Assembly (NCBI GenBank): GCA_963697895.1
Contig: OY969100.1
Location: 736,001 to 800,000, forward strand
Source of the DNA: an uncultured Methanomicrobiales archaeon
GTDB taxonomy: Archaea > Halobacteriota > Methanomicrobia > Methanomicrobiales > Methanospirillaceae
DNA: 64,000 nt
Direction: 5' to 3'
Below, one piece after another: positions 11,270-15,727 of this stretch. The notes under the pieces are model-generated. The model was not told the DNA's origin, did not search any database, and saw only the letters and a program-made list of their open reading frames with translations. Each line of letters opens with the position of its first letter. Within the stretch, counting starts at the first letter, position 1. A program made the translations under genes and the position numbers.

Positions 11270-11899
11270 ATGAAAGCGGACCGCATATGTAAAACAGAGA
11301 TTCTCGGAGACCTCACCGACGCTCCATTTTACCTGCCCGTATTTGAGGATGCCTATCGGTTCATTATCGATGATTATTCGATCCCCGACAAAAATATCGT
11401 AATTTTCATCCCATGCGCCATACGAAAGCCATATAGTTCCAGTCCCAGCCATCGGCTCTTCCGGCGGATCATCGATAGTATCCTTGCTCCCGGAGAATAC
11501 CAGATCATCATTTTCGGTACCTGTGGAACCGTACCTGCGGAGCTGGAGTTGATGTACCCGTTCGCCCATTATCATTTCATGCTGGGAAAGTGCACGGATG
11601 AACGAATCAGGAGGGATTTTCACATCATTGAAACATACCGCATTGCGGGTTTCCTGGAGAAGACAAGGCAGACCTATAAAAAGAGAGTCGCCTATTGTAT
11701 CGGACCCTTCCGCGAGGCAATGATTCATGCATCTCAAAGGACCGGAATTGCTATGGATATGTTGCTTCCTTCCAATCCTACGATTGAACGGCAACGTGAT
11801 GAAGATTGTCCGTTCCCTGAAGGGAGCCTTTCGATGAAAGAGTACGTGGATGAATTTCGTGAAGGATTGCAGGAATTGAAAAACACACTCAAACCGTAA
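11270..11899 (+). CDS. Stand-alone DUF5591 (archaeosine synthase ArcS core-like) protein
   Basis: FIPCAIRKPYSSSPSH and GTVPAELELMYPFAHY motifs. Confidence 0.75.
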   Translation: MKADRICKTEILGDLTDAPFYLPVFEDAYRFIIDDYSIPDKNIVIFIPCAIRKPYSSSPSHRLFRRIIDSILAPGEYQIIIFGTCGTVPAELELMYPFAHYHFMLGKCTDERIRRDFHIIETYRIAGFLEKTRQTYKKRVAYCIGPFREAMIHASQRTGIAMDMLLPSNPTIERQRDEDCPFPEGSLSMKEYVDEFREGLQELKNTLKP

Positions 11900-12014
11900 A
11901 AAGCTATAAAGCCCTGTGGAGATGTATGGACCGACACCGCGTCACCTGCAGAGAGCGCGTAATATTTATCGCGTCATCGATACTCATTTGTATTGGAATT
12001 CATCTGAGCAGAAA

Positions 12015-12380
12015 ATGGCAGACATTTACGAGAAAATTTACCGGGATCTTGAACATCTCGGTGTGCTTGATGTTAGACAATACGCAGTAATCCATAACGA
12101 TCCCTATCCTCCCCTCTGCATCGACCGGCTGGCTCCCGATCGTTTTGCGATTGCGCATAACCGAAATGATGATGGGACTCTCGTTCCGGATCCGGATATG
12201 GAAATTCGGGTATTCCCGGACAAAAAAATGGCAGAACCACTCACCTATCAGGATGCAAACGGCCGAAGAATTGTGTACCCTGAACCTGGCAAGGTTGATC
12301 TTAAAACGAAAAATGAGCTGACGGTCTATCTCGGGCACTGGCTGAAAGACCTGGTGGAGAAAGGATACCATCGCGAATAA
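12015..12380 (+). CDS. DUF6908/DUF1249-like protein
   Basis: IAH...GTLVPDPDMEIRV...AEPLTYQD...YLGHWLKDLVEKGY; probable start ATG 12015. Confidence 0.7.
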   Translation: MADIYEKIYRDLEHLGVLDVRQYAVIHNDPYPPLCIDRLAPDRFAIAHNRNDDGTLVPDPDMEIRVFPDKKMAEPLTYQDANGRRIVYPEPGKVDLKTKNELTVYLGHWLKDLVEKGYHRE

Positions 12381-12422
12381 AGAAAATTTCAGGAAAACGG
12401 TGTGCCCCAGACAAGAAATTCA

Positions 12423-12740
12423 CTGAGTACCTGTTCGGCCCATGGATAATCCGTCTTGGTCGCCCACCGGCCTTACGCCGTTTTGAGCAGTGGACTCGTT
12501 TTATCCACGCAGTGCCATCTATACCCGTTTGTTCGGCCCCCCAGTGCATTGTCTTTGATCGCTCACCGATCTTACGCCATTTTGAACGGATTACTCAATG
12601 CATCAGGGCATCACGGATATTGAGATACACTGTTCGGCCCTGTGATGATGCGTCTTTGTCGTCGGCAGGTCGTCGCGCCGTTCTGACTTGCAGACTGCCA
12701 TACAGCACAGCACCGGTATCCCGGTATACTCTTCTCTGAG
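12423..12740 (-). ncRNA. Tandem array of three ~100-nt structured RNA units, family unrecognised
   Basis: TGTTCGGCCC at 12432, 12530, 12631; GTCTT at 12453, 12551, 12652; CGCCRTTYTGA at 12476, 12575, 12676; variable arms stay complementary; minus-strand TTTATA at 12769-12764. Confidence 0.65.
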
Positions 12741-12877
12741 GCATATCCCAATAGTTGTCTTAATATAAAAATATATCGAAATGAGTACCGTATAAAGAAG
12801 GAGATTGTTTATAGTGTCGATGAAACGCGCATATTTTATCCGTGTATAATTAAAAAATAAATAGGAATTATCTCTCT

Positions 12878-13219
12878 TCAGTGCAGTTCTGGATGGAATT
12901 CCTTCACCGGGGCGCAAGGCCTGTCACCCGAAATAACCCTTTTTATGTCCCTATAGTGCATGATAAAGACTTTCTGCCGTATCAATGCAGTCAGTTCCCT
13001 TTTTTTAACGGAAATGAGGGGTGAAAACCATGCCGTTCCTTCCTGTTCGCCATGAAAATCGACGACTTCGGCAGCCTGATCGCTCGACAACACCAGTATC
13101 TCCTCCGGTGTGATATAGAACCGGGCCCCCGCAATCTCCATGACAAGCCCCTTTCCGGAACGCCGGGCCGAACCAACCGGGGTGTATAGCTCACACACAA
13201 CATGTCTCATGCCACTCAC
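12878..13219 (-). CDS. Hypothetical protein (113 aa)
   Basis: Protein-like ORF; alternative start ATG 13210. Confidence 0.65.
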   Translation of the reverse strand: MSGMRHVVCELYTPVGSARRSGKGLVMEIAGARFYITPEEILVLSSDQAAEVVDFHGEQEGTAWFSPLISVKKRELTALIRQKVFIMHYRDIKRVISGDRPCAPVKEFHPELH

Positions 13220-13987: not shown

Positions 13988-15727
13988 TCACCCGATTACA
14001 ATGTATGCAATTATGGAAAGAAGAAATGCAAGGAGCAATATCGCGATACTTAATGGACCGATAAAAAGGATCATCGTATTCACCGTACTGGCAAGTTGGG
14101 CAATGCGTTGAGAGCCAAAGACGACGATCCGTTCGCAGGTCACCGTGCTTGCCGAGACTTCAGCAGGTGAGAGATCCTGAAGCGCTGACTGAATCGCAGT
14201 ATTGACAAATCCCAGTATCTCTTCCGGCGGGACATGGAGACCGATTGGATTTTTTCCGGTTATCAGATTTACGACATGAGAATCAGTTGTCATTATTTCT
14301 GCTTCGTCTATTTGCATCAGGATATGATCCCGGAATATTTCTCTCGCACCCGACTCCATATTATTTCCATCGAAGAGCATATACGCCGTGGTTTGACCAT
14401 GCACCCGCACGACCAGGGTCTGTATGCCACGGTCCCCAAATCCCTGTGCACGCGTGAATGGAAGGTTGATCTCTGAGACACCAATTTCAAAGGGGTATTG
14501 ATCCAAGGAAGGTGCTTCGTCGATAGCCTGGGTGCTTGCCTTGATATACTCGGTTGCAAGAAGAGTCGCAGGGAGTACATGGCTGATATCCCCGGTAAAG
14601 GAGTTATGTGCATCAATAAATGCGATGTGAGGAAAAGAGCGATGCCCCTCAGCCATTATCATCAGACCGATGCCGACATCAAGATCTTCAGTTTTTTCCG
14701 GAGATCGGGTGCATATAAGGAGAAGGGCATCCGAAAATCGCTGGAAGAGCAAACTGACCGATCCATACCGGACTCTTTTTGAAATCGATGCGTCATTCGA
14801 ATAGGTAAGTTGATCGCGGGAGCCCTGTACTGCATCGATTATCTTGTCGATCTCTGTCTCGGAAACCAGGTTGAAATCATGGGTGGCAGCTCCGTGGGGT
14901 ACCATTACCAGCTCGTCGAATGCCCTCTGGAAACAATTTGGCAGGTTTCCCCCTCCGATCTCCCCCATCGGACCGGGATGCACATTTGGGATCGTCATAA
15001 TCACCCCGCGACGTTCCGGACGGCGGAAGAAGAGGGTTACCTCGGGTACATAGACTTCTTCGCCAATTTTACGGAAAAATTCCTCGAGGTCTTTGGATCC
15101 ATCGGTGAGATGGGCGATAAATGCATTGACAAAATCCAGAATACGAATATGAAATGTTTTATAGAGGGGTCGCTCGATCAGCCGGATCAGCAAAATAAAG
15201 CCTACACCAAAGAACAGCTGGAGGAGGAGTCCGAGGAGGAGGAACCCTGGCGGTAGAATGAGTGTCCCGAAGATCAGACCGGCAATACTCTGGGTTGCCG
15301 CGGGAATAATCATTCGACGGATACGGTAATCTGCGACAGCAACAAGTATCAGGAGACGAGAACCGAACATGAATCCCAGGGAAATGGCGACTGCAAGGGA
15401 GAGAAGTGAAACAGATAATACCAGCGAGAAGAGGGTGATGATTACCCCGAATACCATAGTCGCGAGGGCCAGCAACGCAGAACGGTTCCAGGTCATCGGT
15501 TTGCCGGTTATGTTGACGAGGACTTTCGTCAGTATTATACCGATGATTGCGGGAATAGTGAATACCAGAGATCCGAGAAAATGGTAGGAATCTCCGATCC
15601 GGAAGCTGACAACATCGAGGAGAAGCCCGATGATAATGATGATTCCGACCGAGATTGGCCAGGAAGGTGCGCTGAACAGATAACGGGCAAGCCGTTCGAG
15701 CCGTACATCTCCCTGGAGCACCATCAA
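13988..15727 (-). CDS. DUF2070 family membrane protein
   Basis: N-terminal TM bundle; VHPGPMGEIGGG, HDFN, DAHN, DGNNM and TTDSH motifs. Confidence 0.9.
   Translation of the reverse strand: MMVLQGDVRLERLARYLFSAPSWPISVGIIIIIGLLLDVVSFRIGDSYHFLGSLVFTIPAIIGIILTKVLVNITGKPMTWNRSALLALATMVFGVIITLFSLVLSVSLLSLAVAISLGFMFGSRLLILVAVADYRIRRMIIPAATQSIAGLIFGTLILPPGFLLLGLLLQLFFGVGFILLIRLIERPLYKTFHIRILDFVNAFIAHLTDGSKDLEEFFRKIGEEVYVPEVTLFFRRPERRGVIMTIPNVHPGPMGEIGGGNLPNCFQRAFDELVMVPHGAATHDFNLVSETEIDKIIDAVQGSRDQLTYSNDASISKRVRYGSVSLLFQRFSDALLLICTRSPEKTEDLDVGIGLMIMAEGHRSFPHIAFIDAHNSFTGDISHVLPATLLATEYIKASTQAIDEAPSLDQYPFEIGVSEINLPFTRAQGFGDRGIQTLVVRVHGQTTAYMLFDGNNMESGAREIFRDHILMQIDEAEIMTTDSHVVNLITGKNPIGLHVPPEEILGFVNTAIQSALQDLSPAEVSASTVTCERIVVFGSQRIAQLASTVNTMILFIGPLSIAILLLAFLLSIIAYIVIG

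What the first reader, a model, noticed from the sequence alone, without database searches (positions are those of the whole stretch)
12423..12770. Unrecognised tandem array of three ~100-nt structured RNA units with covarying stems and its own promoter
Seen: this intergenic segment holds three units spaced 98 and 101 nt apart. On the minus strand each reads [arm]-TCARAAYGGCG-...-A(A/C)AGAC-type block ending AAGAC-[arm']-GGGCCGAACA. The arms differ between units yet stay complementary: CGTGGATAA/TTATCCATG, TGCATTG/CAATGCA and CTGTG/CACAG. Outer stems also differ but pair: GATAC/GTATC, ATATCCGT/ACGGGTAT, GGGTAT/GTACTC. Inner pairings TGCTCA/TGGGCG and CGTTCA/TGAGCG covary, and a YGGC apical stem carries a GTAA loop in two units. 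Most non-canonical pairs are G-U on the minus strand, and a minus-strand TTTATA (12769-12764) lies about 25 nt upstream of the first unit. No co-oriented gene follows; the next gene is convergent. Inference: a stand-alone multi-unit RNA under selection for structure, for example a processed antitoxin or guide array, a protein or ligand sponge, tandem ribozymes, or an atypical multi-hairpin H/ACA-like RNA (each hairpin is followed by A-ACA). I could not match it by eye to CRISPR, attC, hammerhead, ZTP, glnA or guanidine-III consensus patterns. This is my best candidate for an undescribed system here.
Basis: partly seen in the sequence, partly recalled or inferred. Interest (0 to 1): 0.85.

Follow-up and report, generated by a model that had tools for sequence, protein, structure and literature searches.

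The report
New three-domain structured RNA in methanogens
This stretch is a stand-alone gene for a roughly 340-base non-coding RNA built from three copies of one pseudoknotted fold, found only in one order of methane-producing archaea and matching no described RNA family, so its function remains to be discovered.

Summary
The three ~100-nt units are real. They belong to one RNA gene on the minus strand, about 12743 to 12403 (341 nt). It has a TATA box upstream, an 8-bp helix joining its 5' and 3' ends, and a T-run downstream. It matches no Rfam 15 family. It is single-copy in the genome and is not the RNase P or SRP RNA. Covariance models find it in 45 of 151 genomes of the family and 38 of 151 of the order. 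None was found in 132 genomes of 20 other families of the phylum. Named carriers are Methanolinea, Methanoregula and other Methanomicrobiales. Two families carry a one-domain form of 141-145 nt with the same closing helix. Across 125 units, 88.9% of cells pair against 67.2% in shuffles, and 28 of 30 pairs change on both sides. A loop-to-tail pseudoknot has compensatory changes. Metatranscriptome contigs bridge all three units. H/ACA guide, processed array, cis riboswitch and MITE readings fail. Function is unknown; I favour a modular trans-acting binder.

The parts
12764..12772 (-). TATA-box-like promoter element (TTTTTATAT on the minus strand), about 21-29 nt upstream of the conserved 5' end
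   Evidence: Read. An A/T-rich TTATATATA-type box stands at the same distance upstream of UGCC in all 30 Methanoregulaceae loci aligned. It is also seen in the loci of the other families that I read. The function as a promoter is inferred.
12736..12743 (-). 5' arm of the closing helix (UGCCUCAG)
   Evidence: It pairs with CUGGGGCA at 12410-12403 (8 bp). A 5'/3' duplex of at least 9 bp, found with 13/14-nt arms, is present in 51 of 52 RNAs. There are 35 distinct arm pairs. Mean dG is -19.2, against -7.3 (sd 3.1) for shuffled 3' arms. Compensatory variants are listed.
12627..12717 (-). Loop CGGC is at 12680-12677 and tail GCCG at 12638-12635.
   Evidence: R2 hit, 58.5 bits, E 6e-14. Pairing is counted.
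12525..12615 (-). Domain 2: loop UGGC at 12579-12576 and tail GCCG at 12537-12534 (U-G in the pseudoknot).
   Evidence: R2 hit, 62.1 bits, E 6e-15. The loop/tail combination is listed.
12427..12516 (-). Domain 3: loop CGGC at 12480-12477 and tail GCCG at 12439-12436.
   Evidence: R2 hit, 68.5 bits, E 9e-17. On its own it folds at z = -2.64 against shuffles.
12403..12410 (-). 3' arm of the closing helix (CUGGGGCA).
   Evidence: Contigs from RNA libraries of three studies end at 12406, inside this arm.
12394..12397 (-). T-run (UUUU) 5 nt after the closing helix; likely archaeal oligo-T terminator
   Evidence: Read. A T-run 4-10 nt after GGGGCA/GGGCA was seen in most of the loci of the other families that I read. 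The function as a terminator is inferred.

Best explanation
Window 12743 to 12403 (minus strand, 341 nt) is a stand-alone gene for a structured non-coding RNA. It belongs to a family that I could not find described.

Shown:
- A conserved TATA box lies about 25 nt upstream.
- A helix joins the 5' end (UGCCUCAG) to the 3' end (CUGGGGCA), and a T-run follows.
- Between the two arms lie three paralogous domains of about 91 nt.
- Each domain is a long hairpin. It has P0 and then P1 (about 13 bp). Next comes an asymmetric internal loop, with one A on the 5' side and G(C/U)GA-nn-ARAGA on the 3' side. P2 (about 11 bp) follows and is capped by a 12-13-nt loop, nAAAYGGCRnAA.
- The loop's YGGC pairs with the GCCG of the conserved tail GGGCCGAAC, which lies between P1 and P0. 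This is a pseudoknot that must fold P2 back along P1.
- The family is restricted, as far as searched, to one archaeal order (Methanomicrobiales by the names of carrier records).
- The family exists as a one-domain RNA (141-145 nt) and a three-domain RNA (315-357 nt) with the same closing helix.

Inferred:
- The RNA acts in trans as a stable, modular binder.
- Each pseudoknot-locked domain offers the same pocket, lined by the near-invariant loop and junction bases, to one partner.
- I think that partner is more likely a protein (decoy or scaffold, one or three sites per RNA) than a small ligand.
- The closing helix protects the ends.
For: Gene and structure:
- Three units confirmed.
- No Rfam family at gathering score in the window, and nothing meaningful at E up to 10 in 12300-12900. 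Nothing for four relatives' loci either.
- The ORFs over it have no Pfam hit above cut-off.
- 3 of 3 pattern matches in the genome are these units.

Homologues:
- R1: 45 of 151 family genomes, 9 of 19 genera.
- R2: 38 of 151 order genomes. By family: f1 13/29, f2 2/20, f3 10/12, f4 4/30, f5 8/30, f6 0/29.
- 0 of 132 genomes of 20 other families of the phylum.
- 30 of 30 Methanoregulaceae-type loci have exactly three tandem units.
- 15 of 15 named archaeal loci have three units each, and 0 of 8 bacterial pattern hits are confirmed.

Covariation:
- 90 units: 87.9% of cells paired against 68.7% shuffled, 0/500. Slid controls give 34-40%.
- 125 units: 88.9% against 67.2%. 28 of 30 pairs change on both sides, in 853 cells. 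Slid controls give 32-39%.
- The pseudoknot is not part of the model, so the alignment is not fitted to it. It is 99.4% paired, and 3 of its 4 pairs show two-sided changes: CAGC/GCUG twice, CGAC/GUCG once, CGGU/ACCG four times.

Closing helix: 51 of 52 RNAs have it.

One-domain forms keep the TATA box, closing helix and T-run.

RNA: contigs of RNA libraries from three studies hold the stretch. Single contigs run 12406-12729 (X1) and 12406-12724 (X4), bridging all three domains.

Trans action:
- The gene downstream is convergent in the window.
- It is convergent in 20 of 30 family loci, and in the loci of f3 and f5 where a downstream gene was recognised.
Against: - No partner is identified and nothing tests binding.
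- No neighbouring gene is shared by all families. The neighbours are DUF5591/DUF6908 downstream in Methanoregulaceae, a symporter upstream in 17 of 30 of those loci, an RNase III-domain gene divergent in f3/f4, and a small ferredoxin-like gene upstream in f5.
- About 19 positions are conserved at 85% or more, mostly in unpaired or pseudoknot positions. That density is as typical of aptamers and ribozymes as of protein sites.
- Distribution is patchy. Five complete genomes of the family keep the DUF5591 gene but show no hit beside it. The RNA is therefore dispensable in many relatives.
- Contigs cannot give strand, level or exact ends. An RNA library can hold DNA.
- The G-U excess over A-C in helices is modest: 258 against 173 of 3649 cells. 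The strand assignment therefore rests mainly on the TATA box, the T-run and the strand of the model hits.
Confidence: 0.55

Rival explanations
1. Each domain is a natural aptamer for a small molecule or ion, for example a cofactor of methanogenesis. The RNA senses or buffers that ligand in trans, with one or three sites per molecule.
For: - Near-invariant bases sit in the loop, the junction and the pseudoknot rather than in helices. A pseudoknot closing a pocket is the usual build of riboswitch aptamers (my knowledge).
- The family is confined to one order of methanogens.
Against: - There is no expression platform and no co-oriented downstream gene. A T-run follows the closing helix directly.
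- Stand-alone aptamer RNAs are almost unknown (my knowledge).
- No riboswitch family of Rfam 15 matches.
- No ligand was tested.
Confidence: 0.2
2. The domain is a catalytic RNA. Either each unit cleaves itself and the array is cut into pieces of about 100 nt, or it is a trans-acting ribozyme of a new class.
For: The fold is compact and pseudoknotted with many invariant unpaired bases. Tandem arrangement is known for some self-cleaving ribozymes (my knowledge).
Against: - No hammerhead, twister, twister-sister, pistol, hatchet, HDV or other ribozyme family reaches E 10.
- Contigs of RNA libraries from two studies bridge all three units in one piece, 12406-12729 and 12406-12724. No joints were reported.
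- The one-domain form would have nothing to release.
Confidence: 0.08
3. It is a three-hairpin archaeal box H/ACA guide RNA. Each hairpin is followed by ACA and guides pseudouridylation with Cbf5, Nop10, Gar1 and L7Ae.
For: There are three hairpins, each followed by A-ACA. Three-hairpin H/ACA RNAs exist in Euryarchaeota (my knowledge).
Against: - The internal loop is 1 nt on the 5' side and 8-9 nt on the 3' side. It cannot pair with a substrate on both sides of a target U.
- The loop's sequence (GA-nn-ARAGA) is conserved among the three domains and among families. It does not differ by target.
- The CA of AACA is paired with the conserved UG at the top of P0 (U-A in 90 and G-C in 89 of 124 distinct rows counted). 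A further helix follows it.
- No tandem sheared G-A K-turn can be placed. G25-C77 covaries as a Watson-Crick pair.
- No Rfam H/ACA family matches.
Confidence: 0.02
4. It is a cis-regulatory tandem riboswitch or leader, or a processed repeat array (a type III antitoxin like ToxI, or CRISPR-like), or a mobile repeat (MITE).
For: Tandem repeats of similar units lie in an intergenic region.
Against: - The downstream gene is convergent.
- The units are only 58-69% alike, not near-identical, and Tandem Repeats Finder reports nothing.
- Nearly all genomes with a match hold a single locus (three tandem matches in most).
- No nuclease or toxin gene is shared by the loci.
- Contigs bridge the units.
- 0 of 21 pattern hits in viral contigs are confirmed by the model.
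Confidence: 0.03

Closest known systems
Orphan large structured non-coding RNAs of bacteria (raiA motif, OLE, ROOL, GOLLD)
   Same: It is a stand-alone gene with an intricate, covariation-supported fold and many invariant unpaired bases. It has a narrow taxonomic range and no known function. That these classes are of this kind is my knowledge and the abstract of PMC10861870 (seen in the listing).
   Different: There is no sequence or model match to any of them in Rfam 15. It is archaeal. It is built from one or three copies of one 91-nt module inside a closing helix.
Tandem-aptamer riboswitches (for example glycine)
   Same: Homologous, independently folding domains stand in tandem on one RNA, with conserved junction bases.
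   Different: There is no downstream gene or expression platform. The RNA has its own promoter, closing helix and T-run. No riboswitch model matches.
Multi-site protein-sequestering RNAs (CsrB/RsmZ type; 6S and Y RNAs as closed-end stable RNAs)
   Same: Binding modules are repeated in a variable number on a stable trans-acting RNA, and the ends are closed by a helix. This is what I think it works like (inference).
   Different: The modules here are large pseudoknotted folds (91 nt), not short GGA hairpins. No partner protein is known. There is no homology to those families.
Three-hairpin archaeal box H/ACA sRNAs
   Same: Three hairpins, each followed by ACA.
   Different: The defining features are not met. 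There is no two-sided guide pocket, the loop sequence is conserved, the ACA is paired, and there is no K-turn.
ToxI-type type III antitoxin repeat arrays
   Same: Tandem pseudoknotted RNA units.
   Different: ToxI repeats are about 36 nt, near-identical, cut apart by the toxin, and lie beside the toxin gene (my knowledge). Here the units are about 100 nt and 58-69% alike. They are bridged by contigs, and no endoribonuclease toxin gene was recognised beside them.

Membership tests
Any Rfam 15 family (4227 models) | Score at or above the family's gathering threshold | tested here: not met
   Whole window: only 3 tRNAs elsewhere. 12300-12900 at E up to 10: only mir-33 (21.5 bits against 50) and CRISPR-DR33 (16.7 against 39). 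Five relatives' loci: nothing on the RNA.
Archaeal RNase P RNA / SRP RNA | Match to RF00373 / RF01857 at this locus | tested here: not met
   Both are found elsewhere in the genome. RNase P RNA is at C1:566968-567304 (207 bits). SRP RNA is at C1:1957475-1957786 (173 bits).
Box H/ACA guide RNA | Pseudouridylation pocket with unpaired guide bases on both strands, differing between hairpins | tested here: not met
   The loop is 1 nt by 8-9 nt, and its sequence is conserved among domains and families.
Box H/ACA guide RNA | Single-stranded ACA directly 3' of the lower stem, about 14-16 nt from the target position | tested here: not met
   The CA of AACA pairs with the conserved UG (U-A 90 and G-C 89 of 124 distinct rows). 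It is followed by the P0 helix.
Box H/ACA guide RNA | K-turn or K-loop for L7Ae in the upper stem | tested here: not met
   No tandem sheared G-A arrangement fits. The candidate G25-C77 covaries as Watson-Crick: GC 63, CG 6, UA 1. Protein binding is not testable here.
Self-cleaving ribozymes (hammerhead, twister, twister-sister, pistol, hatchet, HDV-like) | Match to the family model, and cleavage into units | tested here: not met
   No model hit at E up to 10. Single contigs bridge all units. Cleavage in vitro is not testable here.
Cis-acting riboswitch or leader | Co-oriented gene directly downstream, with an expression platform | tested here: not met
   The downstream gene is convergent in the window and in 20 of 30 family loci. 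A T-run follows the closing helix.
Type III toxin-antitoxin antitoxin array | Near-identical short repeats beside an endoribonuclease toxin gene, processed to single repeats | tested here: not met
   Mean column identity is 69% (3 units) and 58% (90 units). No shared toxin-like neighbour was found. Contigs bridge the units.
MITE or other dispersed repeat | Many dispersed copies with terminal inverted repeats and target-site duplications | tested here: not met
   One locus in the genome. Nearly all genomes with a match hold a single locus.
The new family proposed here (closing helix plus 1 or 3 pseudoknot domains) | Domain with P1, P2, loop YGGC pairing with tail GCCG, inside a 5'/3' closing helix, behind a TATA box | tested here: met
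   The window has three R2 hits of 58.5-68.5 bits, an 8-bp closing helix, and TTTATA at 12769-12764.

The most novel reading that the evidence does not exclude
The 91-nt domain is a new natural RNA fold with an activity of its own: a new aptamer or ribozyme class specific to methanogens of the order Methanomicrobiales. The three-domain RNA would then be a covalently fused pseudo-trimer of a machine that, in the families with the 143-nt form, assembles from separate one-domain chains. On this reading the RNA works as an oligomeric particle. In most Methanoregulaceae the P0 arms of the three domains share ACAU/AUGU. Arms of different domains could therefore also pair with one another, which would suit such assembly.
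Probability: 0.15. Interest if true: 0.92.

Novelty: categorically new. Interest (0 to 1): 0.8.

Why it matters
Large, intricately folded RNAs of unknown function are rare, and almost all known ones are bacterial. Each one solved so far has revealed new biochemistry.

This RNA has a structural model with unusually strong comparative support. That model includes a pseudoknot, supported by compensatory changes, that was not built into the search model.

The RNA also comes as a natural one-domain and three-domain pair, which points to the minimal functional unit. Sequences near-identical to it occur in RNA libraries from soil, root, sediment and estuary samples.

It is confined to Methanomicrobiales, which are hydrogen-using methanogens important in wetlands, sediments and digesters. 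A regulator or catalyst specific to them would bear on methane biology.

Practically, the two models built here could be turned into an Rfam family. That would let genome annotation label the locus.

Tried and rejected
- Tandem Repeats Finder on 12000-13200 found no array. The units are too diverged.
- The bacterial sigma-70 and hairpin-terminator scan gave one chance-level promoter hit and no terminator. It does not apply to archaeal promoters, so I did not use it.
- Single-sequence folding is weak evidence. Units A and B fold no better than shuffles (z -0.14 and -0.31). Only unit C does (z -2.64).
- The inverted repeat 12394-12403 with 12475-12484 would pair the loop of domain 3 with the trailer. 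The trailer lies beyond the closing helix and differs in the other genomes. I treat the repeat as chance.
- Parts without cover: no contig of the four runs lay on 12150-12405 or on 12730-13000.
- The 16 listed runs that I did not lay are no evidence either, and I name no habitat from them.
- Contig ends. X1, X4 and X6 (three studies) all stop at 12406, and at 12729, 12724 and 12727 at the other end. All have loose ends.
  - The loose letters in X4 and X6 look to me, from memory, like Illumina TruSeq and Nextera adapter sequence. That would mean cDNA inserts ended there.
  - This is at most a weak hint of a discrete RNA whose 3' end lies in the closing helix. It does not fix the ends or the strand.
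  - No joint (circular junction) was reported.
- RNase III link.
  - The gene lying divergent, directly upstream of the RNA in f3 and f4 encodes an RNase III-domain protein.
  - Close relatives of it were found in 56 of 201 order genomes, but in none of the RNA-bearing genera g2, g5 and g7, and not in this genome.
  - This genome's own 147-aa RNase III-domain ORF occurs in 86 of 151 family genomes without relation to the RNA. It is in g13 23/25 where the RNA is 0/25, and in g2 4/19 where the RNA is 19/19.
  - I rejected it as a general partner.
- DUF5591 link. Five complete genomes without the RNA keep that gene, and no model hit lies beside it (best E 0.19).
- Viral contigs: 21 pattern hits, 0 confirmed by the model.
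- A FastTree of the 125 units shows that in Methanoregulaceae the units group by position. Resolution for the other families is too poor to date the triplication.
- Papers. Four searches were answered. I saw only listings and abstract starts, and none describes this RNA. Two searches timed out. Subscription journals and supplementary files were not searchable, so an earlier description cannot be excluded.
- I did not use structure prediction, complex prediction, the protein-database searches or the metagenome scan.
Full report
**Observation**

The minus strand of 12423-12770 holds three units. GGGCCGAACA occurs at + coordinates 12432-12441, 12530-12539 and 12631-12640 (spacing 98 and 101). TCARAAYGGCG occurs at 12476-86, 12575-85 and 12676-86 (spacing 99 and 101). 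The three units align with 69% mean column identity.

The exact decamer occurs nowhere else in the window. The combined unit pattern occurs only at these three places in the 2.09-Mb genome, with 0 matches for the reversed control. Tandem Repeats Finder sees nothing because the copies are too diverged.

That gene is 11916-12380 on the + strand, DUF6908/DUF1249.

**Not coding, not a known RNA, not a repeat element**

- The four ORFs that overlap the stretch have no Pfam hit above cut-off.
- The alternative minus-strand ORF 12000-12371 has no Pfam hit either. The + strand ORF over it is the real gene.
- Rfam 15 finds only three tRNAs elsewhere in the window. At E up to 10 on 12300-12900 it gives only two sub-threshold chance matches.
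- Five loci of relatives, including one-domain forms, also give nothing on the RNA.
- RNase P RNA and SRP RNA lie elsewhere in the genome.

**Homologues**

A strict pattern found the same RNA in two genomes of another genus. Over about 350 nt the three loci align base for base. The alignment includes an A/T-rich box upstream and a conserved 5' GATATGCCTCAGAG.

I built model R1 from 9 units. It found matches in 45 of 151 genomes of the family: 28 of 95 high-quality genomes and 9 of 19 genera. Most of these genomes had three tandem matches about 100 nt apart at one locus. All 30 loci that I examined have exactly three units.

I built model R2 from 90 units. Its results were:

| Search | Genomes with a match |
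|---|---|
| Order | 38 of 151 |
| Class (same six families) | 46 of 151 |
| Phylum, 20 other families | 0 of 132 |

By family in the order search: f1 13/29, f2 2/20, f3 10/12, f4 4/30, f5 8/30, f6 0/29.

A pattern scan of one genome per species of GTDB gave 23 places. Fifteen are in records titled Methanolinea, Methanoregula, Methanoregulaceae, Methanomicrobiales or Methanobacteriota. All 15 have three R2 hits. None of the 8 bacterial places has one.

The distribution is patchy. Five complete genomes of the family keep the neighbouring DUF5591 gene but have no hit beside it.

**The domain**

On the 90-unit MAFFT alignment the domain reads as follows:
- P0top: U-A and G-C.
- P1: 13 pairs.
- One unpaired A on the 5' side.
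- P2: 11 pairs, closed by UC/GA.
- A 12-13-nt loop, nAAAYGGCRnAA.
- A 3' junction, G(C/U)GA-nn-ARAGA.
- After P1, the tail GGGCCGAAC.

Pairing counts:

| Alignment | Cells paired | Shuffled | Shuffles reaching it | Slid controls | Pairs changing on both sides |
|---|---|---|---|---|---|
| 90 units (MAFFT) | 87.9% | 68.7% | 0 of 500 | 34-40% | 25 of 30 |
| 125 units (model-made) | 88.9% | 67.2% | 0 of 500 | 32-39% | 28 of 30 (853 cells) |

The second alignment is fitted to the nested helices, so those counts lean towards the model. The MAFFT alignment is not fitted and gives the same picture. RNAalifold alone recovers P2.

The pseudoknot joins loop YGGC to tail GCCG. It was not in the model, so the alignment is not fitted to it. 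It is 99.4% paired, and three of its four pairs show two-sided changes:
- CAGC with GCUG, in two units.
- CGAC with GUCG, in one unit.
- CGGU with ACCG, in four units of two families.
- G-U intermediates also occur, including UGGC in the window's second domain.
- One unit has a mismatch (tail GCCA).

About 19 columns are conserved at 85% or more. They are mainly the loop A's, CGGC, the junction G and A's, and GGGCCG.

**The whole RNA**

In every family a TATA-type box lies about 21-29 nt upstream of a conserved (U)GCCUSRG. That 5' arm pairs with a 3' arm ending GGGGCA or GGGCA. A T-run follows in most of the loci read.

Of 52 RNAs, 51 have a 5'/3' duplex of at least 9 bp. There are 35 distinct arm pairs. 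Mean dG is -19.2 kcal/mol, against -7.3 (sd 3.1) with shuffled 3' arms. In one locus (L061) I could not find the 5' arm.

The arm variants are compensatory:
- GUGAGG/CCUCAC against GAGGGG/CCUCUC.
- UGCCUCAG/CUGGGGCA against UGCCUCGG/CCGGGGCA.
- The same helix against UGCCUGAG/CUCGGGCA.
- UGCC.../...GGCA against GGCC.../...GGCC.

In the window the helix is UGCCUCAG (12743-12736) with CUGGGGCA (12410-12403), which gives 341 nt.

Arm to arm, 41 RNAs with three domains measure 315-357 nt. Ten RNAs with one domain, in families f2 and f5, measure 141-145 nt. Within the window's family the units group by position in a tree, so the triplication is older than that family's radiation.

**RNA evidence**

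Four metatranscriptome runs from four studies were laid on 12150-13000. Contigs 95-99% alike to the window (100% in X8) cover these stretches:
- 12406-12729 in one piece (X1).
- 12406-12724 in one piece (X4).
- 12406-12628, 12454-12637 and 12608-12727 (X6).
- 12566-12715 (X8).

RNA libraries from several studies therefore hold this sequence, and single contigs bridge all three domains. No joint was reported.

Contigs give no strand, level or exact ends, and RNA libraries may hold DNA. What I make of the common stop at 12406 and of the adapter-like loose ends is in Tried and rejected.

**Strand**

- Model hits are all on the minus strand.
- The TATA box and the T-run fit that strand.
- G-U pairs outnumber A-C only modestly: 258 against 173 of 3649 cells.

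**Context**

- In the window's family, a stand-alone DUF5591 gene lies convergent downstream in 20 of 30 loci. It resembles the ArcS domain: its weaker matches in five genomes fall in open frames of 543-565 aa.
- A DUF6908-like gene lies between it and the RNA in 9 of 30 loci.
- A sodium/solute-symporter-like gene (my reading of its sequence; not searched against Pfam) lies co-oriented upstream in 17 of 30 loci, but not in the window.
- In f3 and f4 the gene lying divergent, directly upstream, is an RNase III-domain protein.
- In f5 a small ferredoxin-like gene lies upstream, and one genome has the gene-plus-RNA pair twice.
- No neighbour is common to all families. Neither RNase III-type protein tracks the RNA.

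**How it most likely works**

Shown: a stand-alone gene, a closed-end RNA, and one or three copies of a pseudoknot-locked module with near-invariant loop and junction bases.

Inferred:
- It acts in trans. Nothing co-oriented follows it, and a T-run ends it.
- Each module binds the same partner.
- The number of modules can be one or three, as in multi-site decoy or scaffold RNAs.

I put a protein partner first, at about 0.4 of my belief within the overall statement. A small ligand comes second (0.2). Catalysis is third (0.08). The H/ACA, processed-array, cis-regulatory and mobile-repeat readings each fail defining features that I tested (see Membership tests).

**Novelty and limits**

There is no Rfam 15 match. 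Four answered full-text searches (listings and abstract starts only) found no description. Two searches timed out.

I file this as a new RNA family that cannot at present be placed in any known functional kind. The structure and distribution are well supported. The function is not.

Noticed in passing
L061:2031-2717 (+); also beside the RNA in L050, L052, L055, L066 and L068 (full length), L054 (apparently frame-shifted) and L067 (fragment): In two other families of the order (f3, f4), the gene lying divergent, directly upstream of the RNA, encodes a protein of about 230 aa with an RNase III domain (PF00636, 40.3 bits). RNase III-type enzymes are uncommon in archaea (my knowledge), and the RNA has a 9-13-bp closing helix. 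Its relatives do not track the RNA in the window's own family.
   Followed up: partly
window 11270-11899 (+) and 11916-12380 (+): A stand-alone 209-aa DUF5591 protein is followed by a DUF6908/DUF1249 protein. DUF5591 is the domain also found in archaeosine synthase-like ORFs of about 550 aa in relatives. Both genes are convergent with the RNA. The DUF5591 gene keeps this position in 20 of 30 family loci.
   Followed up: partly
L058:1750-1832 and L058:5584-5666 (+): One genome of family f5 has two copies, 3.8 kb apart, of a small ferredoxin-like gene followed by a one-domain RNA with its own TATA box. Another genome (L059) has two one-domain genes about 400 nt apart.
   Followed up: partly
G123 (contigs C25 and C14) and G272 (three contigs): Two assemblies show two or more separate three-unit loci (6 and 8 model hits). 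This could be real duplication or mixed strains in a metagenome bin.
   Followed up: no
window 12394-12403 with 12475-12484: A 10-nt inverted repeat (90% complementary) could pair the loop of domain 3 with the trailer just past the closing helix. The trailer is not conserved in relatives, so I took it as chance.
   Followed up: partly
alignment, linkers between domains (for example L018, L010): In most Methanoregulaceae the 5' P0 arms of all three domains contain ACAU and the 3' arms contain AUGU. Each linker could therefore also form a local hairpin (AUGUUC...GAACAU), or arms of different domains could pair. In the window, the 3' arm of domain 2 and the proposed 5' arm of domain 3 are the same bases.
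   Followed up: no
G000:C1:2006901-2007341 (L108:1447-1890, minus strand): The window's genome encodes a 147-aa protein that is little more than an RNase III domain (PF00636, 62 bits). It is found in 86 of 151 genomes of the family, unrelated to the presence of the RNA.
   Followed up: yes
window 12878-13219 (-) and 13988-15727 (-): Upstream of the RNA lie a 113-aa ORF without a Pfam match and a 579-aa DUF2070 membrane protein. The symporter-like gene that precedes the RNA in 17 of 30 relatives is not here.
   Followed up: no
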